Shown piece after piece: positions 1,669-20,000 of a stretch of 20,000 bases of DNA. The notes under the pieces are model-generated. The model worked only from the letters and a program-made list of their open reading frames with translations, ran no database searches and was not told the DNA's origin. Position numbers and translations under genes: made by a program. The DNA is from Plasmodiophora brassicae (Eukaryota): positions 1,107,680 to 1,127,679 of the forward strand of contig CP145422.1 in NCBI GenBank assembly GCA_036867785.1, given 5' to 3'. Within the stretch, counting starts at the first letter, position 1, and each line of letters opens with the position of its first letter.

Positions 1669-2217
1669 TCAACCCTGCTCGACCTGGTTGCCGGCTTCAT
1701 CCTTCTCTTTCATCATCTTGCCGACCACGAAGCTCCAAGCGTCGCGCGACTGGCGTACCTTGATGGCGTATACAGCCAACGCGGCAATGCAAATCATGAG
1801 CAGGACGGTGAACAGCGTCATTGCCAGCAGTGTGATCGTGCGTATGTCGCTGGTAACCATCTCCTTCCATGATTCATGCGAGCCTGGTGTCGATGTCGAA
1901 TATTGAGCAGCAGTAGACGACCCAGCCGCCGGTTCTGCAATTGAAGCCTGCCGCTTCCCAATGGCCCTCACGACGGCAACCGTGCCTAGGGCAGCCGCCG
2001 TGCCTGCTGCAGCCAAGAGCTTAGCGTTCCCGTCTGTGGCAGTCAAAGGTGAGGCCGCCTGGGCAGTATGCTCTACCGCTACGACGTTACTCTTTGTCAT
2101 GAACGGGGCTGGCGGTGCCGGATGGTCATCCTGACGGTCCCCACTAGTGGCATCGGCGTCAGGCAGGAGGAGCACGCATACGGCCAACCACACGAACGAC
2201 GTGACGAGATGTTCCAT
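1669..2217 (-). CDS. Hypothetical 182-aa protein with N-terminal signal peptide and C-terminal transmembrane helix
   Basis: From ATG 2217: MEHLVTSFVWLAVCVLLLPDADA (hydrophobic core, AxA cleavage site), an Ala/Ser/Thr-rich middle with an internal hydrophobic stretch, then ITLLAMTLFTVLLMICIAALAVYAI followed by basic residues. Single exon. Confidence 0.7.
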   Translation of the reverse strand: MEHLVTSFVWLAVCVLLLPDADATSGDRQDDHPAPPAPFMTKSNVVAVEHTAQAASPLTATDGNAKLLAAAGTAAALGTVAVVRAIGKRQASIAEPAAGSSTAAQYSTSTPGSHESWKEMVTSDIRTITLLAMTLFTVLLMICIAALAVYAIKVRQSRDAWSFVVGKMMKEKDEAGNQVEQG

Positions 2218-2468
2218 GGGCAGCGGTTCGCAGGCACACGCGGCGATGTCGACGGGCTGGCGATGGCCCGCTACGCCCCGAAATAGAATCTCCCGACACC
2301 CGAAATGGCAGGGCACACGCAGCAGCACCAGACAGTGAGACCCCAACAGCTGTGTCCACTAAACGACTTCCGTCGATGACGCTGGCCGCGCCAACAGACC
2401 ACAGCAGCGGGAACCGACTGACGTAACTGACGTAATATATTCGTGTCGATAGGGCGACCGCGCATGCG

Positions 2469-3656
2469 TCATTCCGCCTGCCTATCGATGAACTTGCTTT
2501 CTGGGTAGAACGTCGCGCCGACTAGCTTGCCGTTGAACGACCGCGTCTTCAGGACGTCCCGAGCCGCGCTGGCATGATCGACGCTGTCGAACTGGACCCA
2601 TATCTTGCCGACACCGGGCGGGTCGTTTTCGGGGCCGTCCGCCGACGGCTTCGGGATCCAGACTTGCTCAACCGGACCGAACTTCTGGCACTCCTCGCGC
2701 ACGTCCAGCAGAATATCATCGTACTCGTCCTTGTCGAGGAGATCGCCCCTCGAGCACATGTTAGTCAGCAGAATGACGCGAGTGGGCGCCGTGATGGCCT
2801 GGTCGACGAGGTGAGCAGGAACGGGCGGCGCCGCTGTCGAATGGGCCGGTAGTCGGCCGGTGCAGTCCGCTGGGGCGGCTGGCAGGCCGGCAATATCCAT
2901 GACGAACGTGTCAAGGTGGTCCGGTGCCGGCATGTAATCCGCTGGGCGTCCCACGCGAAGCGGGCGACCGCCGAGCATCAGGCCGTCAAAGATGTCGATG
3001 CAGCGGGTCGCATCTGAGACAGCACGACATTCGCTGATTAACGATTTCAGCTCACATACGAACGGGGCCGACCAATCATACAACATGTGACATGTAACTT
3101 ACACGAACTGAGAAGACGAGGTCAGAATCGGAGCACACACGGGCCAGACGCGGTCCGAACTTACACAGAAGGACCCGTCGGAGCTCGTCCAGACGGAGAC
3201 GACGGGGTTCGGCGTGGTGATCCCACTGGCGATGGCCGCGTTCGTGAAGAACTGGACGAGGGCGGCCTCGGTGAACCCCGCGCCAATCGGCAGGTTGCCG
3301 CAGTACAGGCGCCGGGCCTGACGAGTGACCTGCGCCAGCTGCGGGTTCGATCCCGCGGGCGATTGCGACAGGAGCTGCTTGATGAGCTCCGGGTTGGGTC
3401 GGGGCGGCGACGGGATCGCACGGGTGCGGCTGCGGCTGCGGGTCTGGCGACGGCTGCGGCTGCGGCTGCGGCTCCGGTGACGGCGATGGCGGCGCGGCGA
3501 CCTCGACGATGGACGCCGGCGAGGGTGACGCCCGGACGGCGACACCGACCTGTGCCGGCGGCGGTGACGCGACGACCGGGATCGCGACCGCGACTGCGAC
3601 CGCGACCGGGACCGGTGCCGATGGCGAGGGCGTCGGTCGGATCGCGGTTCCGACAT
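2469..3656 (-). CDS. U2AF large subunit (U2AF65)-like splicing factor: RS domain, RRM1, C-terminal UHM (about 353 aa)
   Basis: Exons 3656-3165, 3107-3103, 3033-2469. RS-rich N-terminus; TRQARRLYCGNLP (U2AF65 RRM1 start); FCFVECR...FDGLMLGGRPLRVGRPADY; PTRVILLTNM...EYDDILLDVREECQKFGPVEQVWIPKP...GVGKIWVQF...RSFNGKLVGATFY (UHM). Confidence 0.9.
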
Positions 3657-4157
3657 CTGTCCTTGCTGCGCGGTCCGCACCACCCGCCGCGGATTGTCCA
3701 ACTGAGCCGCCACAATTCGGCGACGGCCAGATGCGACCTGTGCCGTCAGCCGCGCACGGCTGACGGCACCACGCCCCGGGTGGATACAACGATTTATATA
3801 CCGAGGTAGGACAGCGCAGGCGAAACAACCAGCGGGGGCACCCTGCAGTACATGGATGGTTGCAATGGGAGAGAGACCCGTGCGAGTTACACGCCAATGT
3901 GGCGAGATCGTCATAGTAGGCGGGGTAAGGCCGTCCTCTGTTTCACCTGGGCGTTATGCTCGTCAGCAGTAGAGCGGAAGCCTGCCTGCTGAGGTAGGTA
4001 GTGCTGCTACTTACTCTAATAGTGCAGGCAGTGTGCTCACCTGTCGTTGGGTGTCCCGTTTTGGGGCGGCGGCGGCGTCGCGTGCGTCGGGGTCTCATTG
4101 CGGGGCTGTGCAGCGGCGCGGGTTGATCCTGTCCCAGTCGGTTGGGGTGCCGCCGCC

Positions 4158-4665
4158 ATGTTCATCGACAAGCTCAGCAAGAACGCGTCGCACCGATGGG
4201 CCATGCTGCGTACCATGGCGACGCAGCTGCTTCAGTACGGGCGGATTGAGACGACGCTGCCCAAGGCGCGGCAGCTGTCCAAGGTGGCCGACCGCCTCAT
4301 CACGTACGCCAAGCGCGGCACGGCCGGGTCCCGCATGCAGGCGACCCGCATCGTGCGAAGCACGGACATGATCGACAAGCTGTTCAAGGAGATCGCCCCT
4401 CGGTACACGCACCGGGACGGCGGGTACACGCGCGTCCTGCGATCCCGCAAGCGGTACGGCGACAACGCCACCATGGCCTTCATCGAATACGTTGACAGGT
4501 ACGCGCACCTGGGCGGCTAACCGCATGTCAACTGATGCTGGATCTCGTTTGGGCAGACCCGGGGAATTGCGACAGGCGCGAGCGCCGCCCACGATGGCAC
4601 CGCGGTCGTCTACGACGGCGTCATCCGTGTCGGACGTCGATGTTGAAGGCGAGACTGTCCAGTAG
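4158..4665 (+). CDS. MRPL17: Ribosomal protein bL17, nuclear-encoded, probably mitochondrial (149 aa)
   Basis: Exons 4158-4498 and 4557-4665 (intron 4499-4556). KLSKNASHRWAMLRTMATQLLQYGRIETTLPKARQLSKVADRLITYAKRG...LFKEIAPRYTHRDGGYTRV...GDNATMAFIEYVDRPGELR are canonical bL17 motifs. Confidence 0.95.
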
Positions 4666-4768
4666 ATCGGGATCGGCAATAAAGCCTCACAGGTCTCCCC
4701 AACATCTAAATATCTGTGCATCTAACAACGACAGGCACGCGTCTCTCTATCCGTGTTACGTGACGACG

Positions 4769-7278
4769 ATGACGGATACGATGGACATGACGGTCGTCCA
4801 GCCGTTGTCGATGACAATCATGACGGAGGGGACGACGACGGTCATGGGGTCGTTTGCCACGAGTCGTAGGGACGACGGGGTGGGCGACGGACGACAGGAG
4901 GATCGCGGCCTGGAGGATCCCGTGCTGACGAGCTTCTGGGACTTGGTCCCCGACATCGTCGAGGTGTACATGCGAGGAAGTGCAGGTGCCGGTGCTGTTG
5001 GAACAGGGGCGGTATCGTCGCCATCTGTCGCACGAGTCGAGGCATTGCCTGACGACGCACCGGATTCCATTGCCATACCTTTGCAGTCCATGCGATTCGA
5101 CAACAAACCCATCAGAACCAAGGTATGTACACTGAACACGGCCAGTATGGGGTAACCAGCAATGGGCGCGACCTGAGCGTCTGACGCAGATCAGGACGGC
5201 GGAGGAGAAGAGGGCCGAAATCATGGCGAAATGGCAGAACGACGCCAGGTACAGAGACTTGTTCGACTCGGCCGTCATTGTCGTCGTGGACGACGCTGAC
5301 GATAACGCCAACAACACTGCATCCGGCGGCTCGCCAGACGATAGTACAAGCAGCAAAGGGTCGGTGGGGGGTATTCGACCCGTTGGCCCAGTGTTCTGAA
5401 CGGCGCGCGCTCGATGGTAGGCAATCGTGCGACCTGAGCGACTACGTGGGGCAGGCCCAGTCGACGCATTCCCTGAAACTGAAGCAGCCGATGTTACTGT
5501 CGTCGGCGCACCCGCTCGCCAGCCAGGCATACAAGGTCTTCAAGAAGATCGCCACGTACATGATGGATCGCAAGTCCAGCAAGACGCCTCTCGTTCAGGT
5601 AGGGTCTGTGCGGCAGCCGCCCTCGGCGTTTCAGTTCACATGTGTGGCGTTTCAACAGGCACACGAGCTGCTCGAGGTGGCCATCAGGGCTCCAGAAGCC
5701 CTACGCGATGAGATCCTTGTTCAGGTTATGAAGCAGACGAACGAAAACCCGTCGCCTGAGTCGACCGTTCGTGGCTGGCGCCTGCTGTCGTTATGCCTCG
5801 GGCACTTCCCGCCGTCGTCGCAGCTGGCGCCCTACGTCAAATCGTATGTCGCGTCCGCGATCCAGTCATCGTCCAGCGAGGTCGTCGACATCGCCAAGTA
5901 CTGCATGTCGAATGTGGCACAAGTCGTCGTCAGCGGCGCCCGGGTTCATGCTGCGTCCAATGCAGAGATTGCCGCCTGCGAACGTCGCCGACCTGTCGTC
6001 GTCAAGGTACGCCTGGGACGTCGACGGCGCGCCACTCGACTAACACATCGTGCACGGCTTGTAGATCTGGCACTCGAGCGACCCTCGCGACGTGCTGCGA
6101 GTGGCTGTCGAGCCGCATACGACTGTCCGGGCCACGGTTCAGGCCGTCTCGGTGCGCCTGGGTATAACGATGCCGGCCGCGTTCGGCCTGTCCGTTCGAC
6201 GACGCAAAGGCGCCCTGCGTCAGGAGATGGCCGCGTACGAGAAGGTGCTGGACGTCGTGTCCGAATGCCTCATGGCGGGGCGGGCCAAGGACAAGGACAA
6301 CGCAACGGTCAAAGGGAAAGCCCGAACGCCAAAGGCGTCGTCGTCGTCGGCCGACGAAGCTGATCTGGTGGTGGCCATGAGCGGGATTGATGTCGGGATC
6401 CTGTTTCACGCGCGTCTCCTGATTGCCAGCAAGAACGCGTCACTGTCCGATGGCGAATTGCACATATTCTTCCAGCGGTGCGTGTCGGACGTGCTGGCCG
6501 GTCATTACCCGGCCGACGAGAAGGACCTCATGGCCCTGGCCGTCATCCAGTGCTATGCCCAGCGCATCTGCAAGGACGCGAAGGACAGTGCAGGAGCCAG
6601 CCAGCAGGGCATGCCGGAGACATTGCCAAGGACCGGGAGTGGGGCATCGGCGGAAGATCAGGGGTCCGACTGGCTGTTCGAGTACCTGCCCGCTGATATC
6701 ATCGCCATGCGCAGTCGCCCGTACCTGCAGAAACGACTGATGACCGATGCGGTCAAGACCATGGAGGGCAAGTCCAGGCGCGATGCCGAGATGGAATACC
6801 TCAGGTTCGAACCGCTCCATCGTGCATGCGTTCACGCCGGATGACCGATTAATGCTGTGGTTGCCAGATACACGGAGAAGTGGCCGACCAGCGGAGGGAC
6901 ATTCTTCGCCGCCACGCGACTAAAGAACGAGGCCAAAGGCAACGAGGACCAGCCTGTACTTCTGTGCGTCACCGAACGCGGTCTGCACTGCTGCGATCCG
7001 GGAACGAAGGCAGTCGTGAGTTGCGCCTGCTGTCGTACGGTATTCCCGCAATGTGCTCATTGTCGTAGAGGCAAATGTTCCCGTACGCTCGCATAAAGAC
7101 GATGGGCGACGTGAACGGGAACCTGCTGTCCGTGGTGGCCGGGTCCGACCTACACGAGTTCCGCATGCAATTCCTGACGGATCAGGCGCCTATGATCCAC
7201 GACCTCATGCAAGAGTATATTTCCGTCATGGCCAGCACCCACTCGAACGTCATCCAAGACGTCATCACCGAATCGTGA
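4769..7278 (+). CDS. MyTH4-FERM domain protein without a motor domain (about 715 aa)
   Basis: Predicted exons 4769-5122, 5190-5359, 5421-5598, 5659-6006, 6065-6804, 6868-7015, 7069-7278 join in frame. MyTH4 motifs: VFKKIATYMMDR, LRDEILVQVMKQTNENPSPESTVRGWRLLSLCLGHFPPSSQLAPYV. FERM motifs: FQRCVSDVLAGHYP...LMALAVIQ, AEMEYLR..EKWPTSGGTFF, VLLCVTERGLH. The start codon and first two exons are less certain. Confidence 0.85.
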
Positions 7279-8324
7279 GATGGCAAGCAACACCAGCATG
7301 CATGCATGCACGAACGATTGTACATCAGTCCATGTCCCGCCAGCGTTGACAACGACATGCTAGTTTGGTAGATCAGCGGTCGTCGAGACCGACAACCTTG
7401 TTATTCAGCGTCCGATCCTGCATGTATTTATACACGATGCAGAATACAGGACTACTGCCCATATGTGTATGGCTGCTGTAGACGTACGTAGCGTTCTTGT
7501 TCGCAGTTAGGCGGCGAAGTCGACCTCTGTTAGCATTCGGCCTTACCACATTCTGCAAACTGTTTACAAAGAAGGAGCGGAACAGCCCAAGTGCTGCAGG
7601 GAGGGAAGAGGCCCGCGTCCAGCTCTAACAGAGCACCGAGGTCACCAATCCTGGTCCGATTCAGAGACGCACCATGTAGTAGTAATAACTAGCCCAGCTT
7701 TTGATTGTCAGAGGCGGCGACCGTCTGGAGGTGTAGGTACCTGCGGAATGCGGCAGGCCAACACGGAACGAAGCTCGTTTCAGGCTAGAACGATCAGCGC
7801 GTCGGCGAATTGCTCTCTACGAAACTGTAAAATGCCTCAGTCTTATAACGTACAATGCAGCACATGAGCAGTATTATAGACGTCTTGGGGTAAGGATAGA
7901 TCAAGATGAAAGCATCCACGAGGGCGGACACTGAACATCGGGATCGTAATTTGGCAGCGGTCCGTTCGAGGACTTACGCCTGCCAAGCGTTCCCGCAGTC
8001 ATAACGGTTGGCGAGACGCCGATCCGGATCCATGCCGTTTGCTATAAACGCTATGGGCAATGGCCGTCCTGCCCGGTACACGATAGCAACCCGCGTCGTC
8101 GCGCTCCTTGTTCTAAATTGCCTGACTGTGGACATGGGCCATGGCAAGCTTGGTGGTCATTTCCGAGATTCATCACTAACAGGAGATCGGTCAGAAACAA
8201 AATACACAGGTCACCGGATCCCGACATGTGGATATTGTAATATTGTAATGACGAGATCACTCGAGAATGGTATGAGAGCACAGGCTGTGGACCCGTGGTG
8301 CATTGTCACCGGAACACAATATTG

Positions 8325-11300
8325 TTACTCTTTGACCATGGCAGAGGGTGTTGCTGTGATGTGCCGCCGGATTGTGTCGAGGACCGTCGCAGCGGTATCG
8401 ATCAAGGCCATGTCCGTCGGCTGCTGTATGACGGCTTCGAGTTTGCCGATGAACGTCGTGTCGAGCGTTTCTGGGAACGTTCCGGCGCCGATTTGCACAC
8501 GAACCAATGGCCACCATGTAACCATACACTGCAACAGGCGAAGCAAATTCGCACGATGTATCATCAGTGCGCGATCAGCAGGCGGTGGTGGCCCAGGCGC
8601 TGCAGACGGCATGCCCAGAATCAGATCTACGACAGGATCCGAAGGCTTACTGGTCGGGTTGACAATGTGAATGCGATGCAGAGGGTGCATGCGTTTATGC
8701 GCACCCTGGCACAATTCGCATTCGTCGAAATCGTCGCAGTCGAAGCAGTGGTAGCGGGTTGACGAGAAACCCAGGTCCTTCCGACATACATCACAAGAGA
8801 ACTGAACCGATACGCCCTGCAAGCGACTGATAGAATGGTGCAACGCATCCAAAGCTGACGGCGTCGTCGTTGGTTTCGACGTCCGGCAAAGACCATTAGA
8901 CCTCTCGACGACGTCGGCCCATGATATTGGTGACTCCAACCGCACCGGGGCCCACCTGCCGGGGAAAGAGGGTGGGGGTCCACCCATGGAAAATGCAGAG
9001 GATGCAGAGGACGCTGCGCGGGTTGACGATCCACCAAACAGACTTGAAGGCGGCACAGGCGGTGCTGCCGCGGAAGGCGCCGGTGAACCAAAGTACACAG
9101 GTACTGGCCCCACCGTTTGCGACCCACACCCCGGCCTGGCTGGCGCTGAAGGCGCACAAGGCACATTGCGAATCGGCAGGCTTGCCGGATTCGGCGAACC
9201 GAAGAACCCGTGTGCCTGAGCAACAGCCGGAACCAAATGCGGATTCGGTGGGCGGACCAGACAAGGTTGTGGGTCGGGAGCCGCGTGCTCCATATCGATT
9301 GGTTCGTGAGGAATCGTGGTCTGCGCACGGCCAAGGTACGATGTCGAACCCGACGGCGCCGGCACGTTGAACGCGAACGACACGTCGTCTTCGATGCGGT
9401 CGCGCATGCGCTGGACCGCGACACTGCCGTTCCAGACCACGTACTTCGAATCGGTCATGGCTGACATCCATTCGTATGCCAGATCTGCACCGGATAACGT
9501 TTCGTCAGCGACGCGAACATTCGTGCGGTCGTCAATGTTGCCGTTGATTACAACCCGGATCCGGCGAGATACCTCCTCAAAGTCGGGCAGGCGACTCACG
9601 ACGTAGAGCATCAAGTCTTGGTCAACATCGGCCCCGACAATCTTCGCACCCACAGAATTCACGTCTGTGACGACGTCGGGCTTGTCGAACTGAAGTCGAT
9701 TCCCAGCTTGAGCCGCGAGAACTTGGACGCCTGATACGGTGATGTCGATCGGCTGTCGACGAAGAGCGGCAACCCACGCTGCAAATTCGATCCTGAAGAT
9801 ACGGTCCAGGCCAGGCTCGTCGACCTGCATCGACAGCAATGCAGGGCATGGGCCTAGAACGCGAGCCACTCGCGATGCGGTATCCTGACTGACCCAGGCC
9901 CCAAATCCGGTAACAACGCCACCACAGACCTGCAATTCCCTGCACACCACTTCCAGGTCGTCCAGTACGGCATCAACCGGGCCATTATGCCCGCCGTCCG
10001 TATCAAAGTCGATGAACGTCTTGAGGTTCAGGGACTCGCCGGCGGCTTTAGCGAGCAGTGGTCGTGCCAGTTGCTTTGCACCTCGAACAGGCACCACGAA
10101 ATCTGTGCCGCCGTTAGGACGAAGCCCAGACAGCCAGGCAAACAACTCGTTGACAGAATCGAGCGCCTGGCGCGTGGCGTCGTTCGTGAAACTGGACTGA
10201 TGCAGAGATTCGGGGGCGTCTTTGACCCGAAATGACACAAGACGGTGGCCCAGCAGCGTATGGTCAAATGCAATGACAAGTTCTGCCCAGATATCGTTGC
10301 CGTCGATGAGACCTGCATTCAGCAATGTCTTGATTGCGCCCAAACGTTTCTCGATGCGCGTGCGCGCCATCTTGTTGAAACAGTCGCGAACAGTGCCCGT
10401 CTGAGACCAAACCAGGCCAGTGCTCCCCGACGAATCCGACATTGTCAGGTGCAGAAGCAGGGCAGGTGACCTTCGGCTCGACAGCGACGTCGGCGTATGA
10501 ATCCGGACGCGCATCAGCCGACCGGGAACCGACACGGTTACACGTTCGCGATCCAGGTCGTTGTTCGGCGCTAGGATCGTGCATTGCGTCGAGAGGCTAT
10601 CGTTGACAGATGTCTGCAGAAGACGGTCGGCCTTCGGATTCGGTATTGCCAACCATGCGACCAGGAACGTCGGTTGCGGGGGCAAGCACGCCCACCGGTA
10701 TCCACGTTCCGATATTGGCGACGCCGCCAGCATGCAGTAATTGGTCGGGAACTGGGATTTCAAATGGTGATACGCTCGGCTGTGGGTGCTAACGGGCAGA
10801 AGTTCCGCCGAAGACGGCAGGCGCAGGGAAACAGAAAGCAACGTATTGCCAGATCCATCGTAGACCGGTGCCCAGGGTAGGAACAAGGCAAACGGAAGCA
10901 AACGGCCGGTGCCAAGGTCGCTTCCGTCGGGACGTGAACCCATCATATCGTACAGAACCGGGTTCAACGCTGACAGACGAAGCGTGACGCGACCCTTGTG
11001 AGCAACGGGGCCGATTTCGACGGTGATGTCGTCGTCGACGGCCGCTGTCGCAATCCCGGCGGTCTGATTCGTCCCGGATTGGCGAACGGCATCGACAACG
11101 GCCTGCGCTTGAGCGGTGTACGCGATGGACGTCGGGATATCAATCCAGGACTGGGTCGTTTCGTCCCATTCGTGCAACGCTGTCGAGATGAGATTGAGCA
11201 GAGATTTGTCGTGCGAGGAGATTCTAGTGCGGGCCAGGCGCAGACGCACCGACATGGACTCCCCCGGATGCGGGTTCGTAAAATCCAGTGTCAGCGTTAC

Positions 11301-11411
11301 GCGCAAAGCGTCCTCCGATACAGTCACATCAAAGGACATCGCAGACGGATGGATGACTGGACGCGGCGGCGCACGTGACCACCCAGCAGAAGCTGAACAC
11401 TGTAGCGCCAA
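8325..11411 (-). CDS. Large protein with VIT-like N-terminus, vWA domain, Pro/Ser-rich linker and ZZ-type zinc finger
   Basis: 1028-codon open frame. VIT-like FDVTVSEDALRVTLTLDFTNP; vWA MIDAS DSSGS, LRPNGGTDF, DTDGG, VTGFG; ZZ finger CDVC..RYHCFDCDDFDECELC..H...H. First in-frame ATG is at 11339; a CTACAG acceptor at 11400 suggests unresolved upstream exons (11457-12170). Confidence 0.8.
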   Translation of the reverse strand: MALQCSASAGWSRAPPRPVIHPSAMSFDVTVSEDALRVTLTLDFTNPHPGESMSVRLRLARTRISSHDKSLLNLISTALHEWDETTQSWIDIPTSIAYTAQAQAVVDAVRQSGTNQTAGIATAAVDDDITVEIGPVAHKGRVTLRLSALNPVLYDMMGSRPDGSDLGTGRLLPFALFLPWAPVYDGSGNTLLSVSLRLPSSAELLPVSTHSRAYHHLKSQFPTNYCMLAASPISERGYRWACLPPQPTFLVAWLAIPNPKADRLLQTSVNDSLSTQCTILAPNNDLDRERVTVSVPGRLMRVRIHTPTSLSSRRSPALLLHLTMSDSSGSTGLVWSQTGTVRDCFNKMARTRIEKRLGAIKTLLNAGLIDGNDIWAELVIAFDHTLLGHRLVSFRVKDAPESLHQSSFTNDATRQALDSVNELFAWLSGLRPNGGTDFVVPVRGAKQLARPLLAKAAGESLNLKTFIDFDTDGGHNGPVDAVLDDLEVVCRELQVCGGVVTGFGAWVSQDTASRVARVLGPCPALLSMQVDEPGLDRIFRIEFAAWVAALRRQPIDITVSGVQVLAAQAGNRLQFDKPDVVTDVNSVGAKIVGADVDQDLMLYVVSRLPDFEEVSRRIRVVINGNIDDRTNVRVADETLSGADLAYEWMSAMTDSKYVVWNGSVAVQRMRDRIEDDVSFAFNVPAPSGSTSYLGRAQTTIPHEPIDMEHAAPDPQPCLVRPPNPHLVPAVAQAHGFFGSPNPASLPIRNVPCAPSAPARPGCGSQTVGPVPVYFGSPAPSAAAPPVPPSSLFGGSSTRAASSASSAFSMGGPPPSFPGRWAPVRLESPISWADVVERSNGLCRTSKPTTTPSALDALHHSISRLQGVSVQFSCDVCRKDLGFSSTRYHCFDCDDFDECELCQGAHKRMHPLHRIHIVNPTSKPSDPVVDLILGMPSAAPGPPPPADRALMIHRANLLRLLQCMVTWWPLVRVQIGAGTFPETLDTTFIGKLEAVIQQPTDMALIDTAATVLDTIRRHITATPSAMVKE

Positions 11412-13948: not shown

Positions 13949-14131
13949 ATGGAGGACGACGCCAGGACCAACTCCGACGCCGAGGCCAAGGAGCATGAAT
14001 CGTCGACAGATGACGAAATCGATCGAGGGCTTCAGTCAACAAACCTGCACGGTAAGAGCCCGATCTTTATGCCTTTGAGGGGTTTTAGGAACTTCTATTT
14101 GTATTTGTCAGATACAGCTAAAGCGTCGTGA
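13949..14131 (+). pseudogene. Possible remnant of a host gene interrupted at the retrotransposon 3' junction
   Basis: Acidic coding-like stretch MEDDARTNSDAEAKEHESSTDDEIDRGLQSTNLH, a strong donor GTAAGA at 14052, an acceptor TTTGTCAG at 14111 (60-nt intron), then only DTAKAS-stop before the element's 3' region. Confidence 0.35.
14074..14089 (+). repeat. Short interstitial telomere-like remnant TTTGAGGGGTTTTAGG
   Basis: About two degenerate TTTTAGGG units on the same strand as the terminal telomere, about 110 nt beyond the ORF2 stop. Confidence 0.45.
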
Positions 14132-14191
14132 GCTCGGCGGGAACGGACGTGAATAGGACAGGCTTGACTCGAGTGACAGGATCGGCGGAGT

Positions 14192-14226
14192 GCGCAGCGT
14201 TCACGGCGGGCGCCATGAACGCGCGC
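14192..14226 (-). promoter_or_regulatory. Predicted RNA stem-loop spanning the ORF2 stop codon
   Basis: Sense RNA GCGC-GCGUUCAUGGC-GCCC-GCCGUGAACGC-U-GCGC: an 11-bp stem with one U-G wobble plus 4 bp after a single-U bulge. Confidence 0.55.
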
Positions 14227-17200
14227 GGCGCTCTATGTCGGCCGCACTGTGCCCGTCCAGTGGCGACTGGACACGGCCGGACGACGATGCAGGCGACGGC
14301 GCGTCGGGGCGCAGCGGCACACGAGCTTCATGCTGGGGTCCAGCGTCGGCTTCCGCCGGTCGCCCGGTCGCGTTGGCAATACATCTCATCACGATGGCCG
14401 TCATTATCGCCGTCGGCGAGAGATGGTGGGCGCGTCGACGAACTCGGGCATCGGCATCGATCTCTGGGCCGGCTATGTCCGCACCGCCCAGGAACCCGAC
14501 CAGTGCAGGGTCGTCGAGGACATGTTCGGCGACTTCAACGGCGACTCGCGCGTTCTCGTTGTCCTCATCGTCGCTGATCTCGTTCCATAGCGTCGCGTCC
14601 AGGCCAGCAAGCGCAGCGACGCCCTGAGCGGAGATGGCGAGCGACTCGCCGCGGATGCAGCGGGCGGCAACGGCGCGGATGAACGTGCCCAGGACGGCCA
14701 GCCAGCGTCGCTGGCGATCGCTCAGCCGAAACGTCGGGTCGCGCGGATCCGGCATGCGGCGCGGTCGTAGACGGTCGTCTTCTCTGGCGGGCGGCGCCGT
14801 CAGGCGTGCGTAATCGTTGAGCTGGATGGCGACGTAGTCGATGGCGACGCCCGTGTCCGCCCTGTTGAAGTGCAAGGCATGGATGCGCCAGTCGATGATT
14901 GGCCTGAGCAGGCGCGACGATTCAGTGCAACGGGCAGCAATGTGATACCTCGAGAGGTTCTTGTCGTTGCACGCCCGGCACTGGGCGTTCGAGCCCGGTA
15001 TGCGGTTCGTGACCCATGAAGCCACCGCATATGCGTCGTCGCCCGAGTGGTACGCCGCCGGAAACGGGAGGTTATACGGCTGCAGCTGCAGGCGCATCAG
15101 CTTGCAGGACGCATCAGCGGCAGCCCACGTGTGGAGCTCGAGCGCTTGCAGCAGGGCGTCTTGCCGATCGGGCAGGCGTGGGCGCTTCCGCGTCGGGCGG
15201 CCGGCTTCGGCGTCGGCGAGTTCTTCACGGGCGCGTTGCTCGCGGGCGTCACGACCGTTCCTGTAGATGGCGGTTGCGTCCGCGTAGACCTTGCAGCCCT
15301 TCAGCATCATGTTGAATCGGCTGCGCGGGTTGCTGAGCGCCCAGCGCGTGACGCGGACCAGGAACGGGACGCGATCGCCATCCTTGATCTGCTCCGACCA
15401 CGTGATCTGCTTGAACGCGAACCGGGCGCGCAGCTTGGCCTGGCGGGCAGCGGCGGGCACGAGTCCCGCGTACCGGAGCATCAGGGACGAGCCGATGCGG
15501 CGGCGGTATCCACCGAAGAACAGGGCGGCGGCCGACTTCTGCAGCTGGTCGAGCTTCTTCAGTAGGCCGACGTGGCTGTTGCTGATGGCGAGTCCGTACT
15601 CGGCGCGCGAACGGATCCAGGCGCCGACGACGCGCGTCTTCCGGACGATCGACAGGTGCTTCGTGCTGAACACGCCCGAGTGCATGATCCCGATCATGGC
15701 CTTCTCGGCTTTGGCTGTCCGCGAGGCGAGCTGGGCTCGATGATCGAGGCGACCATCCTTCATGACGACGCCCAGGAAGCACACCGGCTTGTCGAGCTCG
15801 TGCTCCTCGACGACGCGGTTGCCGCCGATGGTCAGGGCTGCCGGCTGCGCGGCGGTCGACGTCCTCGGCCTGGAGACGATCGATTTCGTCGCGTTCCACT
15901 CGAGTTCGTGCCGCTGCGCGTACTCCTGACAGAGGTCCATCATGGCCTGGGCCATCTGGTCGGTGAAGGCGTGCAGCAGGGTGTCGTCGGCGTAGAACTG
16001 GCAGGGCACCGGCATGTGGTCGAACATCGGGGCCTCGTCGCCGAACCGCGACACGATCAGGTACGGCAGGTCGTCGATCAGGACGTTGAATAAGTCAGGG
16101 GAGCCAATCGCGCCCTGGAATAGGCCGACGAGCGCGGCGATCCGCTCGGACAGCTGCCCGTCCAGAGCAATGATGAAATGGCAGCCGTCAAACAAGGCCT
16201 GCAGAACGGCGATGATATGTGCAGGTACGCCTCGTCTGCGTAGCTTTGAGTAGACATGAATGCGGCGGGCGCTATCATACGCCTTCCTCATGTCGAGGAG
16301 GACCTCGATCAGCGGCTTGCGTCGTGCCGCCCAGTGGGTGGTCAGCTCGTCGGCCACCCACACGGCTTCGGGGACACCGATGCCTCGCCGAAATCCAAAC
16401 TGGAGGAAGTGCATCTGCAGCCACCCCTTCAGGTGCATGTACGTGATCAGACACGTCTCATATGCCTTCCGGAGGTGGGACTGCAGCGCAATGCCTCGCC
16501 AGTTCGACGGGTCGGCGGGTTCGGTGTTCCGTTTGTGCACGGGCACAACGAGCGCCGACCGCCAGTCAGACGGCACGAGCTGCACAGTGTACAAGCAGGT
16601 GAGCATGCAGGATATCCAGGGGCCGGCGGCATCCGGGTCACACTTCAGGAGGTCCATCGGTATGTTGTCCGGGCCGACCCCCTTCATCCACTCATGCCGT
16701 TTGATGATGGCGGTGACGACAGCGGGGCCGAACGCATGGCGCTCCTCGTCGTCCAGGTCGTTGGAGAGGCGCGGGGAACGCAGGCGCGGGCCGTCGTCCA
16801 CGCCCGGCTTCTCGAAGACCGCTTTCCAATGGTCGGCGAATTCCTCGATGGACGGGCGCTGGCTGGGCTGCAGCTGCGACGTGGCCGCAAAGACGCGTCG
16901 CATCGAACTGAGGTAGAAGCGCAGGTCGCAGCGCTGCAGCGCCTGCCAGTCGGGACGCATCGTTGCCGTGCGACCTCGCTTGGACCGGGAGCTGGGCCAG
17001 CAGGCGATGTCCTCGAGAACGGCGCGAAGGACGTCAGTGGTGTGGCGGTACAGGCTGTCGACGGCGTCCTGCAGGGCTGCGGTAGGGTGGTCAGCGATCT
17101 CGTCGAAATCACTGGTGGCATCCAGCCACAGGGCACGTAGATAGTTGTAGGCCGGGGCCAGCAGGACCGACAGGGCTGGGCGATCGTCCGGGTCAGCGAA

Positions 17201-17965
17201 CATCCTGCGCGCCCAGGAGTAGCGCTTCGGGTCAACGCGTTCCGGCACGACGTGATCGCTCGCGACAACCAGCATGCGATGCGCCGTGCTGATCGGTGCG
17301 TCGACCACGCTGAGGCGCGCAGAGTCGAGACCGCGGGTCAAGGCGAGATCGACGACGGAGCGTCCGTTGCCGTTGGGCACCACGAATGTCCAGCGACTGG
17401 GATCGCCGCGGAGTGCATAGTTCAAGAGTGACAGTGAGCACCGGCCGATCAGCTCCATGACGTGAGGCTTCCGCGGGCAGGACGTGCTGTCGCCGGAGAC
17501 GTCGCCGAGGCGAGCGTTAAAGTCGCCGACAATGGCGAGACGGTCCCCGTCCGAGCAGTGCGTCGCAATGGCGTTGGCGAGGCCGAACAGCGTCATCTGG
17601 TACGTGTCGACAGGCAGTGACCTGGCCGGGCGGATGTACACGCCGGCGACGACAAGGTCCTCGCCAACGCGCCAAACCGCCCACCTTGGAGTGATGCACT
17701 TGCGCTCGCGGGCGACCTCCCGCAGCGCCACAGCGGCCGGGACCATGATGCTGATGCCACCATGGCCCCTAAGTTCGTTGGCGGATCGCCCGCCAGCGAC
17801 ATGTCGAATTTGGTAATCTGTGAGAACATTGGTTAGTAGCGATTCAGAACGTACATAGGTTTCCACAAAGACCGCCGCCGTGAGGCGACGATCTCTGAAG
17901 AAGGCGGCCGTGGCCTGGAGCTTGGCAGCGTCCAGGCCATCGGAATTCCACGCAGCGATCAGCAT
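14201..17965 (-). CDS. LINE ORF2: AP-like endonuclease, reverse transcriptase, CCHC zinc knuckle
   Basis: APE motifs AWNSDGL, FVETY, GGISI, GVYIRP, IVGDFNAR, WTF..RSVVDLAL, TAHRML. RT motifs KGVGPDNIP, VPVHKR, NWRGIAL, QFGFRRG, LDMRKAYDS, GLFQGAIGSPDLFN, FYADD (YADD at 15983-15994), NATKS, FLGV. C-x2-C-x8-H-x4-C at 14927-14980. Confidence 0.97.
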   Translation of the reverse strand: MLIAAWNSDGLDAAKLQATAAFFRDRRLTAAVFVETYVRSESLLTNVLTDYQIRHVAGGRSANELRGHGGISIMVPAAVALREVARERKCITPRWAVWRVGEDLVVAGVYIRPARSLPVDTYQMTLFGLANAIATHCSDGDRLAIVGDFNARLGDVSGDSTSCPRKPHVMELIGRCSLSLLNYALRGDPSRWTFVVPNGNGRSVVDLALTRGLDSARLSVVDAPISTAHRMLVVASDHVVPERVDPKRYSWARRMFADPDDRPALSVLLAPAYNYLRALWLDATSDFDEIADHPTAALQDAVDSLYRHTTDVLRAVLEDIACWPSSRSKRGRTATMRPDWQALQRCDLRFYLSSMRRVFAATSQLQPSQRPSIEEFADHWKAVFEKPGVDDGPRLRSPRLSNDLDDEERHAFGPAVVTAIIKRHEWMKGVGPDNIPMDLLKCDPDAAGPWISCMLTCLYTVQLVPSDWRSALVVPVHKRNTEPADPSNWRGIALQSHLRKAYETCLITYMHLKGWLQMHFLQFGFRRGIGVPEAVWVADELTTHWAARRKPLIEVLLDMRKAYDSARRIHVYSKLRRRGVPAHIIAVLQALFDGCHFIIALDGQLSERIAALVGLFQGAIGSPDLFNVLIDDLPYLIVSRFGDEAPMFDHMPVPCQFYADDTLLHAFTDQMAQAMMDLCQEYAQRHELEWNATKSIVSRPRTSTAAQPAALTIGGNRVVEEHELDKPVCFLGVVMKDGRLDHRAQLASRTAKAEKAMIGIMHSGVFSTKHLSIVRKTRVVGAWIRSRAEYGLAISNSHVGLLKKLDQLQKSAAALFFGGYRRRIGSSLMLRYAGLVPAAARQAKLRARFAFKQITWSEQIKDGDRVPFLVRVTRWALSNPRSRFNMMLKGCKVYADATAIYRNGRDAREQRAREELADAEAGRPTRKRPRLPDRQDALLQALELHTWAAADASCKLMRLQLQPYNLPFPAAYHSGDDAYAVASWVTNRIPGSNAQCRACNDKNLSRYHIAARCTESSRLLRPIIDWRIHALHFNRADTGVAIDYVAIQLNDYARLTAPPAREDDRLRPRRMPDPRDPTFRLSDRQRRWLAVLGTFIRAVAARCIRGESLAISAQGVAALAGLDATLWNEISDDEDNENARVAVEVAEHVLDDPALVGFLGGADIAGPEIDADARVRRRAHHLSPTAIMTAIVMRCIANATGRPAEADAGPQHEARVPLRPDAPSPASSSGRVQSPLDGHSAADIERRARSWRPP

Positions 17966-17975
17966 CGCTGCGTGG
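17948..17975 (-). promoter_or_regulatory. Perfect 12-bp hairpin at the ORF1/ORF2 junction (candidate translational-coupling element)
   Basis: Sense strand CCACGCAGCGAT-GCTG-ATCGCTGCGTGG. The ORF2 ATG (17965-17963) and ORF1 TGA (17961-17959) straddle the 4-nt loop. Confidence 0.7.
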
Positions 17976-19632
17976 GGTTCGTCTCAGTCGTCCCTGCCAG
18001 ACCGGCCGAGGCCGGCGCCGGCAGGACAGGGCGCATGGTGCCCTGTTCGTCGGTCTGGGATGCGCTGCGTGCTGCAGCATCGTTGTCAGCGGAGGCGGCT
18101 GGGCCGCCGCCAGCTCGTTCGTCCGCCGCGCCAGATGGTTCACCCTCCTCCTCCTCCTCCAGCGTCAGCGATACAGCTTGGCGTTTGGCGATCGGCCTAC
18201 GCCGCATGCTGTACGACTTCTGGCTGTCGAGCTGGAACGCGTTGTCGTCTCGGACGTCGTCCGCCGGCATTTCCACCAGGTCGGAAGATGGTGGCGTGAG
18301 CTCGTTGATGATTGAGGCGACTGGGGGATACAGCGCGCCCATCGCACATGAGCTGCATGAATCGGCATTGGTGTGGGCGTCGTCGTCGCAGATGTCAATG
18401 CTTGGGCGGTCGTCCTCGGGCGTGACAGGAACGTCATCAGTGGGGCTTTCGGCGGGCGCCACGCTCTCGTCAGTACTTGGGGCAGCCTGCACAGGAACAA
18501 CAGCAGGCGGCGCGTCAGTGGGCCTCATAGGCCCCGAGCTCATCGGCGGGCGTGGCTGCTCCCCAGCCGGTGCCATGGGCACGTGGTGATGATCAGGGGC
18601 CGGTGCCGCCCTTGACCGCTCCCAGTCAAGCATTGCCTCGAACTGCCGCTTCGCGGATCGTCGCAGACAGCTGTCAACGCGGCTCGTGATTCGCTCCAGC
18701 CGATAGATGAAGTTGTCGTTCGCGAACTGCTCTTGCTCTGGCTTGGCCAGCTTGCGGAACGCCGCCGAATCGAACAGGAACGGTTCTGTCGGGCGCCGGT
18801 CGAAGTACGTCCGGTAGTCGTGGTGAATGAGCCGGTTGACGATGTCGTTGGTCTCGTGCTCGTAGGCCCACACCTCGAGCATCGACGTCCCATGCAGGAA
18901 CCCGATTTCGACAATCTTGCGAATGTCGAAGCCCTTCGTTTTCAGGATTCGACGGATTGCACTGAGCGGCTGGCGTCGAAAACCGCGAACGTACACCGGG
19001 CGTAGCTTCCAGCTGAGCATCGTTGTCGACTGAGGCGGGGCGCCGACGGCGCGGGTGTCATCGATGGGGTAGAGCGGTCGCCACTGCAGGACTTGCGTCG
19101 TGCTGCCCGCAACAGGTCCAGGCGCGCTGCTGGTGGCGGCTTCAGCGTACGTGGCCGGACAGCGCCTTGCGGCACGGGTCCGCGTCAGTTCCCCGATCTT
19201 GCTGGCTTGAGCGGCGAGGTCTGACTCCAGCCGAGCCGCTGTGCTCGCGTGTTGTTGGCGCGACTCGGACAGGTCCCTGTTGAGGGCGTCAAGTCGCTCT
19301 TCCACGATGGATACGCGGCCCGTCACGTCAATCGTGCGATCTCCAGCCAGGCTGCGGACGATCCCGTGCAGCTCAGTGACGTTACGTTCGTTCGCGGTGA
19401 CGCGGCTCTGCAGGGCAGAGACCGCGTCCTTGTCAGGTGCAGGATCGTTTGACGCTGGCTCGCGATCGGTGTCGTCCACAGTTCGCAGAGTAGCAGGCTC
19501 GCCATCATCGTTGACCTCGACGTCGGGTGGCGCGGGCGTGGCGCTCTTGGTGGGCCTCTGCGACCGCAGCCAGGCCGACGATAGCTGCGACCCAAGGGCG
19601 GCGATCTGCTTCATCATCGCCGTTCCGCCCAT
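17959..19632 (-). CDS. LINE ORF1 (gag-like nucleic-acid chaperone): coiled coil, RRM-like core, disordered acidic/Pro-rich tail
   Basis: 557 aa directly upstream of ORF2. Heptad-like region VSALQSRVTANERNVTELHGIVRSL...LDALNRDLSESRQQHASTAARLESDLAAQASKIGEL; ATYAEAA motif common in LINE ORF1s; beta-alpha-beta pattern PVYVRGF..PLSAIRRILKTKGF..IVEIGFL..MLEVW. Confidence 0.85.
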   Translation of the reverse strand: MGGTAMMKQIAALGSQLSSAWLRSQRPTKSATPAPPDVEVNDDGEPATLRTVDDTDREPASNDPAPDKDAVSALQSRVTANERNVTELHGIVRSLAGDRTIDVTGRVSIVEERLDALNRDLSESRQQHASTAARLESDLAAQASKIGELTRTRAARRCPATYAEAATSSAPGPVAGSTTQVLQWRPLYPIDDTRAVGAPPQSTTMLSWKLRPVYVRGFRRQPLSAIRRILKTKGFDIRKIVEIGFLHGTSMLEVWAYEHETNDIVNRLIHHDYRTYFDRRPTEPFLFDSAAFRKLAKPEQEQFANDNFIYRLERITSRVDSCLRRSAKRQFEAMLDWERSRAAPAPDHHHVPMAPAGEQPRPPMSSGPMRPTDAPPAVVPVQAAPSTDESVAPAESPTDDVPVTPEDDRPSIDICDDDAHTNADSCSSCAMGALYPPVASIINELTPPSSDLVEMPADDVRDDNAFQLDSQKSYSMRRRPIAKRQAVSLTLEEEEEGEPSGAADERAGGGPAASADNDAAARSASQTDEQGTMRPVLPAPASAGLAGTTETNPTQRC

Positions 19633-19684
19633 TCGGTTCGAACACTTGATTTTCTTCGCTGGTGCGGGCGGGTTGCGGCACTGG

Positions 19685-20000
19685 TAGGGCTTAGGGTTTT
19701 TAGGGTTTTAGGGTTTTAGGGTTAGGCTTAGGGTTTTTTAGGGTTTTAGGGTTTTAGGGTTTTTTAGGGTTTTTAGGGTTTTTTAGGGTTTTTTAGGGTT
19801 TTAGGGTTTTAGGGTTTTAGGGTTTTAGGGTTTTAGGGTTTTAGGGTTTTAGGGTTTTAGGGTTTTAGGGTTTTAGGGTTTTAGGGTTTTAGGGTTTTAG
19901 GGTTTTAGGGTTTTAGGGTTTTAGGGTTTTAGGGTTTTAGGGTTTTAGGGTTTTAGGGTTTTAGGGTTTTAGGGTTTTAGGGTTTTAGGGTTTTAGGGTT
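19685..20000 (+). repeat. Telomere, (TTTTAGGG)n, with a proximal variant zone at 19685-19798
   Basis: Homogeneous TTTTAGGG from 19799 to the window end. Proximal units include CTTAGGG, TTAGG, T5AGGG and T6AGGG. The G-rich strand runs 5'->3' toward the end, as expected for a chromosome terminus. Confidence 0.98.

What the first reader, a model, noticed from the sequence alone, without database searches (positions are those of the whole stretch)
17943..17980. Perfect hairpin presenting the overlapping AUG-C-UGA start/stop at the ORF1/ORF2 junction
Seen: ORF1 ends CGA UGC UGA and ORF2 begins AUG CUG AUC (7-nt overlap, -1 frame). They lie at the apex of a perfect 12-bp stem, CCACGCAGCGAU-GCUG-AUCGCUGCGUGG, extendable by GAA/UUC after a 2x2 mismatch. 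A perfect 12-bp inverted repeat centred exactly on the junction is unlikely by chance. Known: telomeric SART1 translates ORF2 by coupling at an overlapping UAAUG with help from downstream RNA structure. Inference: the AUG is sequestered until ribosomes finishing ORF1 melt the stem, giving termination-reinitiation that fixes the ORF1:ORF2 ratio.
Basis: partly seen in the sequence, partly recalled or inferred. Interest (0 to 1): 0.78.

Follow-up and report, generated by a model that had tools for sequence, protein, structure and literature searches.

The report
Stop-start hairpin in a telomeric LINE
A jumping gene at a chromosome end, apparently of the clubroot parasite, places the point where its first gene stops and its second starts at the tip of a perfect RNA hairpin, probably to pass ribosomes from one gene to the next; this is untested.

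Summary
On the minus strand, ORF1 (19632..17959, 557 aa) and ORF2 (17965..14201, 1254 aa, endonuclease plus reverse transcriptase) of a non-LTR retrotransposon overlap in AUGCUGA. This overlap sits at the apex of a perfect 12-bp, 4-nt-loop hairpin (17975..17948; -22.8 kcal/mol, -24.5 with the GAA/UUC extension).

Perfect stems this long are about 50-fold rarer in shuffles. The hairpin is the second of four adjacent strong hairpins (18028..17862), which form the most structured stretch of the element's mRNA. Codon choice favours the structure: native -106.0 against -72.1±7.2 kcal/mol for synonymous resamples, 0 of 300 as stable.

ORF2 has no other usable start and no frameshift site, and 22 AUG triplets lie upstream of it. 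Termination-coupled reinitiation is therefore the best reading, with the hairpin array as its cis element. The specific "masking" role is only inferred, and masking matters less in eukaryotes than in bacteria.

No DNA of relatives could be obtained, so conservation and covariation are untested. The element matches Plasmodiophora brassicae proteins at 98-99% identity and abuts (TTTTAGGG)n.

Verdict: a real feature and a new variant of a known kind. Interest 0.55.

The parts
17943..17980 (-). Junction hairpin B: 12-bp perfect stem, GCUG loop, 2x2 internal loop, 3-bp outer stem
   Evidence: Sequence. The repeat finder I2. -24.5 kcal/mol and pair probabilities 0.97-1.00. Present in MFE and centroid folds.
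17959..17965 (-). AUGCUGA: ORF2 start codon (17965..17963) overlapping the ORF1 stop codon (17961..17959)
   Evidence: ORF lists and sequence.
17959..19632 (-). ORF1, 557 aa, no Pfam family. Its C-terminal tail ...TNPTQRC encodes the 5' arm of the hairpin
   Evidence: Residues 205-557 are 350/353 identical to P0152, named hypothetical protein PBRA_009705 [Plasmodiophora brassicae], with the same C-terminus.
14201..17965 (-). ORF2, 1254 aa: apurinic-type endonuclease (aa 5-238) plus reverse transcriptase (aa 478-707). Its first residues MLIAAWN encode the 3' arm of the hairpin
   Evidence: Pfam Exo_endo_phos 2.3e-05 and RVT_1 1.2e-18. PDB matches to R2 and LINE-1 ORF2p reverse transcriptases, 1.6e-12 to 4e-06. 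Relatives' N-termini.
17989..18028 (-). Hairpin A, upstream of the junction, inside ORF1
   Evidence: -30.5 kcal/mol, 17 pairs of which 3 are G-U; the antisense strand gives only -22.7. Strongest 40-nt fold in the element.
17908..17943 (-). Hairpin C, immediately downstream of the junction hairpin (core 17938..17912)
   Evidence: -26.3 kcal/mol. Present in the folds.
17862..17901 (-). Hairpin D
   Evidence: -26.0 kcal/mol, 17 pairs of which 4 are G-U; antisense only -12.3.
17624..17794 (-). Second strongly structured patch, in ORF2 codons about 58-114
   Evidence: Synonymous-resampling z -3.65, 0 of 50. Dinucleotide-shuffle z -4.43 for 17790-17621.
17984..17986 (-). UGA in the ORF2 frame, 6 codons upstream of the ORF2 AUG. 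It limits any frameshift window to 17983..17966
   Evidence: Sequence (printed).
19691..20000 (+). (TTTTAGGG)n telomere-type array abutting the element's 5' end and running to the window's end
   Evidence: TRF: period 8, 38 copies. Sequence. This repeat is the P. brassicae telomere repeat (PMC6823432, passages).
14079..14089 (-). CCTAAAACCCC, one telomere-repeat unit at the element's 3' junction
   Evidence: Sequence. The boundary assignment is my inference.

Best explanation
The hairpin is an RNA-level cis element of a stop-start (termination-reinitiation) cassette in a bicistronic non-LTR retrotransposon mRNA.

Proposed mechanism:
1. A ribosome translating ORF1 unwinds the hairpin.
2. When UGA reaches the A site, the P-site codon UGC lies one base 3' of the ORF2 AUG.
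3. At that moment the 28-nt hairpin (17975..17948) coincides almost exactly with the stretch of mRNA a ribosome covers. This uses a footprint of 28-30 nt and a P-site offset of about 12 nt, which is recalled knowledge, not from a call. Both arms would be held open inside the ribosome, while hairpin A behind and hairpins C and D ahead stay folded.
4. After peptide release and loss of the 60S subunit, a fraction of 40S subunits shifts back one base, takes up initiator tRNA and starts ORF2.
5. The flanking hairpins limit sliding of the 40S. This is the role reviews give to the downstream structure in SART1.
6. Once the ribosome has left, hairpin B refolds and closes the site.

Shown: the anatomy, the predicted stability, the excess structure over two kinds of null model, and the lack of any other route to ORF2.
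Inferred: reinitiation itself, the role of each hairpin, and any effect on the ORF1:ORF2 ratio.
For: Geometry:
- A perfect 12-bp stem is centred on AUGCUGA.

Stability:
- -22.8 and -24.5 kcal/mol, pair probability about 1.

Structural context:
- Four adjacent hairpins span 18028..17862: -107.3 kcal/mol for 169 nt on the sense strand against -92.6 on the antisense strand.
- Hairpins A and D carry 3 and 4 G-U pairs, so they are much weaker on the other strand.
- Of 90 windows of 170 nt across the element, the junction windows have the lowest MFE (-108.1) and the best z-score (-9.19).

Codon choice:
- Synonymous-codon resampling of the junction window gives native -106.0 against -72.1+-7.2, z -4.74, 0 of 300 as stable. 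None of the 300 keeps 12 pairs in the hairpin's register.
- 31 control windows give a mean z of -0.42 (sd 1.40), with a minimum of -3.65.
- Asn7 uses AAT, 3 of 45 Asn codons in the element, and this creates the UUC of the outer stem.

Need for an unconventional start:
- 22 upstream AUG triplets.
- An in-frame UGA 6 codons upstream and no slippery heptamer.
- Met lies exactly five residues before the endonuclease's Trp-Asn pair in 8 of 10 family members at 29-41% identity; the other 2 are shorter at the N-terminus. The start position is therefore conserved.

The stop is real:
- An independently deposited protein, P0152, ends with the same ...TNPTQRC.

Precedents:
- SART1, UAAUG with downstream structure (PMC5972666, PMC10275272, PMC3894237, passages).
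- RHDV, AUGucUGA at about 20%, and FCV, AUGA at 5% (PMC2699510, Table 2 passage).
Against: - There is no comparative evidence. The window holds no second copy. The only relatives found were proteins without DNA. The two loci from genome contigs were unusable.
- The stem is purely Watson-Crick, so it folds equally on both strands (antisense -28.1). The family looks young, with other copies at 98-99% identity. A recent inverted duplication would look the same.
- A second perfect hairpin, 13 bp with a 4-nt loop, lies at 3740..3769 in unrelated DNA. Such palindromes therefore arise here for other reasons too.
- Eukaryotic 40S subunits do not load internally, so masking an internal AUG has no obvious purpose.
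- A stem of about -23 kcal/mol is modest.
- The TURBS core UGGGA is absent from the 155 nt upstream, and nothing else has been identified that could tether the 40S after a 557-codon ORF.
- Refolding of hairpin B might expel the 40S rather than help it.
- All structures are predictions from a single sequence.
Confidence: 0.45

Rival explanations
1. Hairpin B is a neutral, young palindrome, for example a short inverted duplication from template switching during replication or reverse transcription. On this reading ORF2 is still made by reinitiation at AUGCUGA, but the stem contributes nothing.
For: - 12 of 12 Watson-Crick pairs with no G-U, and equally stable on the antisense strand.
- The ORF1 tail that forms the 5' arm belongs to a protein with no recognised family, and no ORF1 relative beyond 99% identity was found. 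That tail is therefore probably free to change.
- The family is young.
- Another perfect 13-bp hairpin lies elsewhere in the window.
Against: - It does not explain why the palindrome is centred on the junction. I estimate odds of about 1 in 1000 at the observed rate of such hairpins.
- It does not explain why three further strong hairpins, two of them strand-specific, flank it.
- It does not explain why the junction is the extreme of the element in both null models.
Confidence: 0.25
2. The structured domain of about 170 to 430 nt, including hairpin B, serves another RNA-level purpose. Examples are recognition of the element's own RNA by ORF1p or ORF2p as they emerge (cis preference, particle assembly) or protection from nucleases. 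On this reading its position at the junction is incidental to translation.
For: The excess structure extends well beyond the junction, to 17624. Most of it lies inside ORF2 coding sequence.
Against: The single perfect stem is centred to the base on the stop-start overlap. No binding motif is known, and Rfam gave no match (0 matches at E up to 1).
Confidence: 0.15
3. The structured region acts as an internal ribosome entry site, recruiting ribosomes directly to the ORF2 AUG independently of ORF1 termination.
For: A 431-nt region has z -8.55. IRES-like structures next to ORF2 starts have been predicted for some vertebrate L1 spacers (PMC5381506, passage).
Against: Most of the structure is downstream of the AUG. 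The stop and start overlap, which an IRES would not need. There is no Rfam IRES match.
Confidence: 0.08
4. ORF2 is made as an ORF1-ORF2 fusion, either by -1 frameshifting in the C4 run (AAC CCC A, 17979..17973) or because the true sequence is a single ORF.
For: The ORF2 frame is open for 6 codons upstream of the AUG. The proline tRNA could re-pair at -1 on CCCC. One extra C in the run 17977..17974 would fuse the two frames (sequence; my reading).
Against: - There is no X XXY YYZ heptamer.
- Hairpin B starts inside the candidate slip site, so there is no spacer, and hairpin C is about 36 nt away.
- An independent record, P0152, ends at the same stop.
- 8 of 10 relatives start with Met at the same position, with no ORF1-like extension.
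Confidence: 0.03

Closest known systems
SART1 (Bombyx mori telomere-specific non-LTR retrotransposon): translational coupling at UAAUG
   Same: Both are bicistronic LINE mRNAs with no spacer and overlapping stop and start. RNA structure next to the junction is implicated: reviews say the structure needed in SART1 lies downstream of the stop-restart site (PMC5972666, PMC10275272, PMC3894237, passages). Here hairpins C and D are predicted there. Both elements sit at telomeric repeats.
   Different: The overlap is AUGCUGA (start before stop, 7 nt), not UAAUG. The stop and start themselves sit in the apex of a perfect hairpin, a feature that the review passages I read do not mention for SART1. Clade membership was not tested. 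The host is a rhizarian protist. The original SART1 paper could not be read.
Calicivirus and influenza B termination-reinitiation (TURBS class; RHDV AUGucUGA, FCV AUGA)
   Same: The start lies a few bases upstream of the stop, in a different frame. RHDV's AUGucUGA differs from AUGcUGA by one base of spacing (PMC2699510, Table 2 passage).
   Different: TURBS needs the UGGGA core 40-90 nt upstream, pairing with 18S rRNA (PMC5972666, passage). No UGGGA occurs in the 155 nt upstream here. Complementarity to the host's 18S rRNA was not tested.
Helminthosporium victoriae virus 190S (victorivirus) stop-restart
   Same: A structured RNA element close to a stop/restart site in a lower eukaryote (PMC10275272, passage: a pseudoknot upstream is proposed).
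   Different: There the structure is an upstream pseudoknot. Here it is a simple hairpin that contains the two codons, flanked by further hairpins. No pseudoknot was sought or found.
Bacterial and RNA-phage translational coupling by hairpin opening
   Same: The start site of the downstream cistron is base-paired and must be opened by the ribosome translating the upstream cistron. Hairpin sequestration of a phage ribosome binding site is discussed for Q-beta in PMC2978339 (abstract seen in the listing). The wider statement is recalled.
   Different: Masking matters in bacteria because free 30S subunits bind internal sites directly. No such route is known in eukaryotes, so the logic does not transfer directly.

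Membership tests
APE-type non-LTR retrotransposon (LINE) | ORF2 with an N-terminal apurinic-type endonuclease and a central reverse transcriptase | tested here: met
   Pfam Exo_endo_phos aa 5-238 (2.3e-05, 24.7 bits against a cut-off of 24.5) and RVT_1 aa 478-707 (1.2e-18). PDB matches to R2 and LINE-1 ORF2p.
APE-type non-LTR retrotransposon (LINE) | Assignment to a named clade (R1, L1, Tx1 and others) | not tested
Termination-reinitiation (stop-start) cassettes | Stop of the upstream ORF and AUG of the downstream ORF overlap or lie within about 20 nt of each other | tested here: met
   AUGCUGA at 17965..17959. The distance criterion is from PMC10275272 (passage).
Termination-reinitiation (stop-start) cassettes | No conventional route to the downstream ORF | tested here: met
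   22 upstream AUG triplets. There is a single candidate start codon, with an in-frame stop 6 codons upstream.
Termination-reinitiation (stop-start) cassettes | Downstream initiation depends on upstream termination, at low efficiency (about 3-20%) | not testable with these tools
   This needs reporter assays or ribosome profiling.
TURBS class (caliciviruses, influenza B) | UGGGA core 40-90 nt upstream of the restart site, presented by a motif 2/2* stem | tested here: not met
   No TGGGA in the 155 nt upstream of the AUG.
TURBS class (caliciviruses, influenza B) | Complementarity of upstream sequence to 18S rRNA | not tested
SART1-type coupling | UAAUG overlap | tested here: not met
   The overlap is AUGCUGA.
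SART1-type coupling | RNA secondary structure downstream of the stop-restart site | tested here: met
   Hairpins C (-26.3) and D (-26.0) are predicted directly downstream. Only their presence was tested, not whether they are required.
Programmed -1 ribosomal frameshift site | Slippery heptamer X XXY YYZ within the overlap | tested here: not met
   None occurs in 17983..17959. There is only a C4 run.
Programmed -1 ribosomal frameshift site | Stimulatory structure 5-9 nt downstream of the slip site | tested here: not met
   Hairpin B begins inside the C4 run, and hairpin C is about 36 nt away.
Hairpin-gated translational coupling (bacterial/phage type) | Downstream start codon paired in a stem that the upstream ORF's ribosome must open | tested here: met
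   The A and U of the AUG are in the top two pairs, and the whole stem lies within the last 5 codons of ORF1 and the first 6 of ORF2. This is predicted structure only.
Hairpin-gated translational coupling (bacterial/phage type) | Free small subunits can bind the unmasked site directly, which is the reason for masking | not testable with these tools
   This is not expected in eukaryotes (established knowledge) and would need experiment.
Conserved RNA structure (any family) | Stem maintained by compensatory changes in relatives | not testable with these tools
   No DNA of relatives was available. Rfam gave 0 matches.

The most novel reading that the evidence does not exclude
A eukaryotic counterpart of phage-style hairpin-gated coupling. 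The proposal is a footprint-sized hairpin holding both the stop and the start, bracketed by strand-specific hairpins that cage the post-termination 40S subunit. It would form a TURBS-independent reinitiation module, conserved in a so far undescribed lineage of telomere-associated LINEs of Rhizaria.
Probability: 0.2. Interest if true: 0.75.

Novelty: new variant of a known kind. Interest (0 to 1): 0.55.

Why it matters
How LINEs translate ORF2 from a bicistronic mRNA is still unsettled. Reviews read here describe SART1 and human L1 as only partly understood (PMC2881922, PMC5972666, passages).

This junction offers a compact cassette that is easy to mutate. The stop and start sit in the apex of a perfect hairpin about as long as a ribosome footprint, and other hairpins flank it. 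That layout would allow direct tests of whether local RNA folding can hold or position a post-termination 40S subunit without a TURBS-type rRNA tether.

The element is also, as far as my searches show, an undescribed telomere-adjacent LINE in a rhizarian plant parasite. Two searches found no paper on it (13 and 3 papers listed, none about such an element by title). Passages from two genome papers mention no retrotransposon at telomeres.

Tried and rejected
Looking for copies or relatives with DNA:
- A second copy of the element in the window: only noise hits.
- Relatives' DNA in genome contigs. The first scan found none. A 4-sequence alignment gave 2 loci on contigs filed as bacterial MAGs.
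- L001 is a decayed LINE at 26% identity, with 63 nt upstream and no start codon.
- L002 is an AT-rich single-ORF LINE.
- Neither locus has a comparable junction, so covariation could not be tested.

Protein and RNA searches:
- ORF1 relatives: only a 99% identical P. brassicae protein. The ESM Atlas gave only weak fungal hypothetical clusters, best score 0.91 with recognition below its threshold. PDB gave nothing credible (E 0.03).
- Rfam: 0 matches.

Readings rejected:
- TURBS core UGGGA: absent.
- -1 frameshift: rejected on anatomy.
- Assembly error at the C4 run: rejected, because P0152 ends identically.

Other:
- The Kojima et al. 2005 paper on SART1 is not held. I relied on review passages.
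- One structure scan timed out and was rerun with coarser settings (only 20 shuffles per window, so the z-scores are rough).
- No supplements were consulted.


Full report
WHAT IS THERE

The finding's coordinates lie in a 5.6-kb non-LTR retrotransposon on the minus strand, at about 19690..14090. ORF1 runs 19632..17959 (557 aa) and has no Pfam family. ORF2 runs 17965..14201 (1254 aa). It carries an apurinic-type endonuclease (aa 5-238, Exo_endo_phos 2.3e-05) and a reverse transcriptase (aa 478-707, RVT_1 1.2e-18). Its RT matches solved R2 and LINE-1 ORF2p structures at 1.6e-12 to 4e-06.

The element's 5' end abuts an array of (TTTTAGGG)n that runs to the end of the window (19691..20000, 38 copies). 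One telomere unit, CCTAAAACCCC, sits at its 3' junction (14089..14079).

ORF1 residues 205-557 are 350/353 identical to a protein named hypothetical protein PBRA_009705 [Plasmodiophora brassicae]. ORF2 residues 192-442 are 98% identical to PBRA_009698. TTTTAGGG is that organism's telomere repeat (PMC6823432, passages). The window is therefore most likely a chromosome end of the clubroot parasite, carrying a young multi-copy LINE. The rest of the window holds ordinary host-type genes: glycosyltransferase, RRM, MyTH4/FERM and ZZ domains.

Read on the minus strand, the sequence is GAA-CC-CCACGCAGCGAU-GCUG-AUCGCUGCGUGG-AA-UUC, 17980..17943.
- ORF1 ends CGA UGC UGA and ORF2 begins AUG CUG AUC.
- The overlap AUGCUGA is 17965..17959, and ORF2 is in the -1 frame.
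- The 12 pairs are all Watson-Crick.
- The hairpin folds at -22.8 kcal/mol, or -24.5 with the outer GAA/UUC pairs.
- Its pair probabilities are 0.97-1.00 in contexts from +-50 to +-400 nt.
- It is present in the MFE and centroid folds of 121 nt (z -6.18, 0 of 200 shuffles as stable) and of 431 nt (z -8.55, 0 of 100).

In the whole window, perfect stems of 12 bp or more with loops of 3-10 nt give 3 rows from 2 distinct hairpins. The mean over 100 dinucleotide shuffles is 0.04 rows. The second hairpin is a 13-bp one at 3740..3769, in unrelated DNA. This genome therefore does make such palindromes elsewhere. Even at that observed rate, centring on one particular junction has odds of roughly 1 in 1000 (my arithmetic).

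The hairpin (B) is one of four adjacent strong hairpins:

| Hairpin | Coordinates | Energy (kcal/mol) |
|---|---|---|
| A | 18028..17989 | -30.5 |
| B | 17980..17943 | -24.5 |
| C | 17943..17908 | -26.3 |
| D | 17901..17862 | -26.0 |

In a 40-nt sliding fold of the whole element mRNA, A, C and D rank 1st, 3rd and 4th. B was masked from that list only because it overlaps its neighbours.

The 169 nt fold at -107.3 kcal/mol on the sense strand against -92.6 on the antisense strand. A and D contain 3 and 4 G-U pairs and lose 8 and 14 kcal/mol on the other strand. That asymmetry points to selection on the RNA rather than on the DNA. B itself is strand-neutral.

Among 90 windows of 170 nt, the junction windows have the lowest MFE (-108.1, z -5.75) and the best z-score (-9.19) (20 shuffles each, so rough).

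I also resampled synonymous codons according to the element's own codon usage, keeping both protein sequences. The junction window is -106.0 against -72.1+-7.2 (z -4.74, 0 of 300 as stable). None of the 300 resamples keeps 12 pairs in B's register. Thirty-one control windows give a mean z of -0.42 (sd 1.40). Their minimum is -3.65, at 17794..17624, a second structured patch still within the first 115 codons of ORF2.

The rare Asn codon AAT (3 of 45) at ORF2 codon 7 supplies the UUC of the outer stem.

WHY ORF2 NEEDS A SPECIAL START

- The ORF2 frame is closed by a UGA 6 codons upstream of its AUG, and none of those 6 codons is a near-cognate start.
- The next in-frame Met is residue 74, past the endonuclease's N-terminal catalytic residues.
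- 22 AUG triplets precede the ORF2 AUG on the mRNA: 13 in the ORF1 frame, 7 and 2 in the other two frames. Leaky scanning is therefore out.
- There is no X XXY YYZ heptamer. The only slip-prone run (C4, 17977..17974) lies inside hairpin B with no spacer, so a frameshift is unlikely.
- One extra C in that run would fuse the two frames. However, the independently deposited P0152 ends with the same ...TNPTQRC, so the stop is real.
- The start position is conserved. In 8 of 10 family members at 29-41% identity, Met lies exactly five residues before the Trp-Asn pair (M-x-x-x-x-W-N). The other 2 models are shorter at the N-terminus.
- The 3' arm of the hairpin therefore encodes a constrained peptide (I-A-A-W). 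The 5' arm encodes the last residues of ORF1, a protein with no recognised family. The likely direction of adaptation is that the ORF1 tail was shaped to complement the ORF2 start (inference).
- In the 8 relatives with the conserved Met, the second residue is K (3), R (3), T (1) or L (1). K and T codons always begin with A, so at least 4 of the 8 must read AUGA. That would place a UGA in the same relative frame as here. It is a hint only, because no DNA was available.

MOST LIKELY MECHANISM (confidence 0.45)

The most likely mechanism is termination-coupled reinitiation, with the hairpin array as its cis element.
- When UGA is in the A site, the P-site codon UGC is offset by one base from AUG.
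- A footprint of 28-30 nt with a P-site offset of about 12 nt (recalled knowledge) would cover 17976..17947, which is almost exactly hairpin B.
- Both arms would then be held open inside the terminating ribosome, while A (ending 17989) and C/D (from 17943/17938) stay folded on either side.
- The flanking hairpins could limit movement of the post-termination 40S. Reviews assign this role to the downstream structure of SART1 (PMC5972666, PMC10275272, PMC3894237, passages).
- B refolds once the site is vacated.
- Calicivirus junctions are similar in form: RHDV AUGucUGA at about 20%, FCV AUGA at 5% (PMC2699510, Table 2 passage). Their UGGGA tether is absent here.

The anatomy and statistics are shown. 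Every functional step is inferred.

WEAKNESSES

- The stem's perfection, its strand neutrality and the youth of the family fit a recent inverted duplication equally well.
- Masking an internal AUG has no clear purpose in a eukaryote.
- About -23 kcal/mol is a modest barrier.
- Refolding could even disfavour 40S retention.
- All structures are predictions from one sequence.

COMPARISON AND NOVELTY

The cassette works most like the SART1 and calicivirus stop-start cassettes. It fails the defining sequence features of both: no UAAUG and no UGGGA. It is not a frameshift site.

The review passages I read do not describe a stop and start held in the apex of a perfect, footprint-sized hairpin within a hairpin array. 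My searches listed 15, 39 and 33 papers, none of which reports one by title or by the passages read. I therefore class it as a new variant of a known kind, resting on one sequence.

The element itself appears undescribed in the literature I could search (passages of PMC6823432 and PMC11191646). Repbase and the papers' supplements were not consulted.

Noticed in passing
window 19691-20000 and 14079-14089: The element's 5' end abuts (TTTTAGGG)n running to the window's end. A single telomere unit, CCTAAAACCCC, sits at its 3' junction, with the element's sense strand collinear with the C-rich strand. This fits insertion into, or priming from, telomeric repeats, as in a telomere-targeting LINE. No paper found describes such an element in Plasmodiophora.
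   Followed up: partly
window 3740-3769: A perfect 13-bp inverted repeat with a 4-nt loop (GTGCCGTCAGCCG-CGCA-CGGCTGACGGCAC) in unrelated host DNA, between an ORF with a weak RRM match and a MyTH4/FERM gene. Its purpose is unknown.
   Followed up: no
window 14187-14226 (minus strand): The ORF2 stop codon (14203..14201) lies in the 3' arm of the second strongest 40-nt hairpin of the element, at -28.3 kcal/mol, about 110 nt from the 3' end. It may be a 3'-end recognition stem.
   Followed up: no
window 17624-17794 (minus strand): A second patch of excess RNA structure inside ORF2: synonymous-resampling z -3.65, 0 of 50, MFE -99.8.
   Followed up: partly
window 18063-18071 (minus strand): A third copy of CACGCAGCG, the 9-base core of the hairpin's 5' arm, lies 92 nt upstream in ORF1. 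It could pair alternatively with the 3' arm. The window holds 3 matches against 0.70 expected, and 7 of 200 shuffles reach 3. The local hairpin wins in all folds.
   Followed up: partly
window 17974-17977 (minus strand): A C4 run lies just upstream of and inside the 5' arm. One extra C would join ORF1 and ORF2 into a single frame. An independent protein record ends at the same stop, so the two-ORF layout is real.
   Followed up: yes
window 19691-19800: The telomere units nearest the element are irregular (CCCTAAAAAA variants, CCCTAAGCCTAA), unlike the regular outer array.
   Followed up: no
L001 1-3823; L002 1-1434: Two contigs filed under bacterial MAGs in the genome collection encode eukaryote-type LINE endonuclease/reverse-transcriptase fragments. 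They are probably eukaryotic contamination of the bins.
   Followed up: partly
window 404-11339: Neighbouring host-type ORFs carry GNT-I/glycosyltransferase, weak RRM, MyTH4, FERM and ZZ zinc-finger domains, so genes lie within 3-6 kb of the telomeric element.
   Followed up: no
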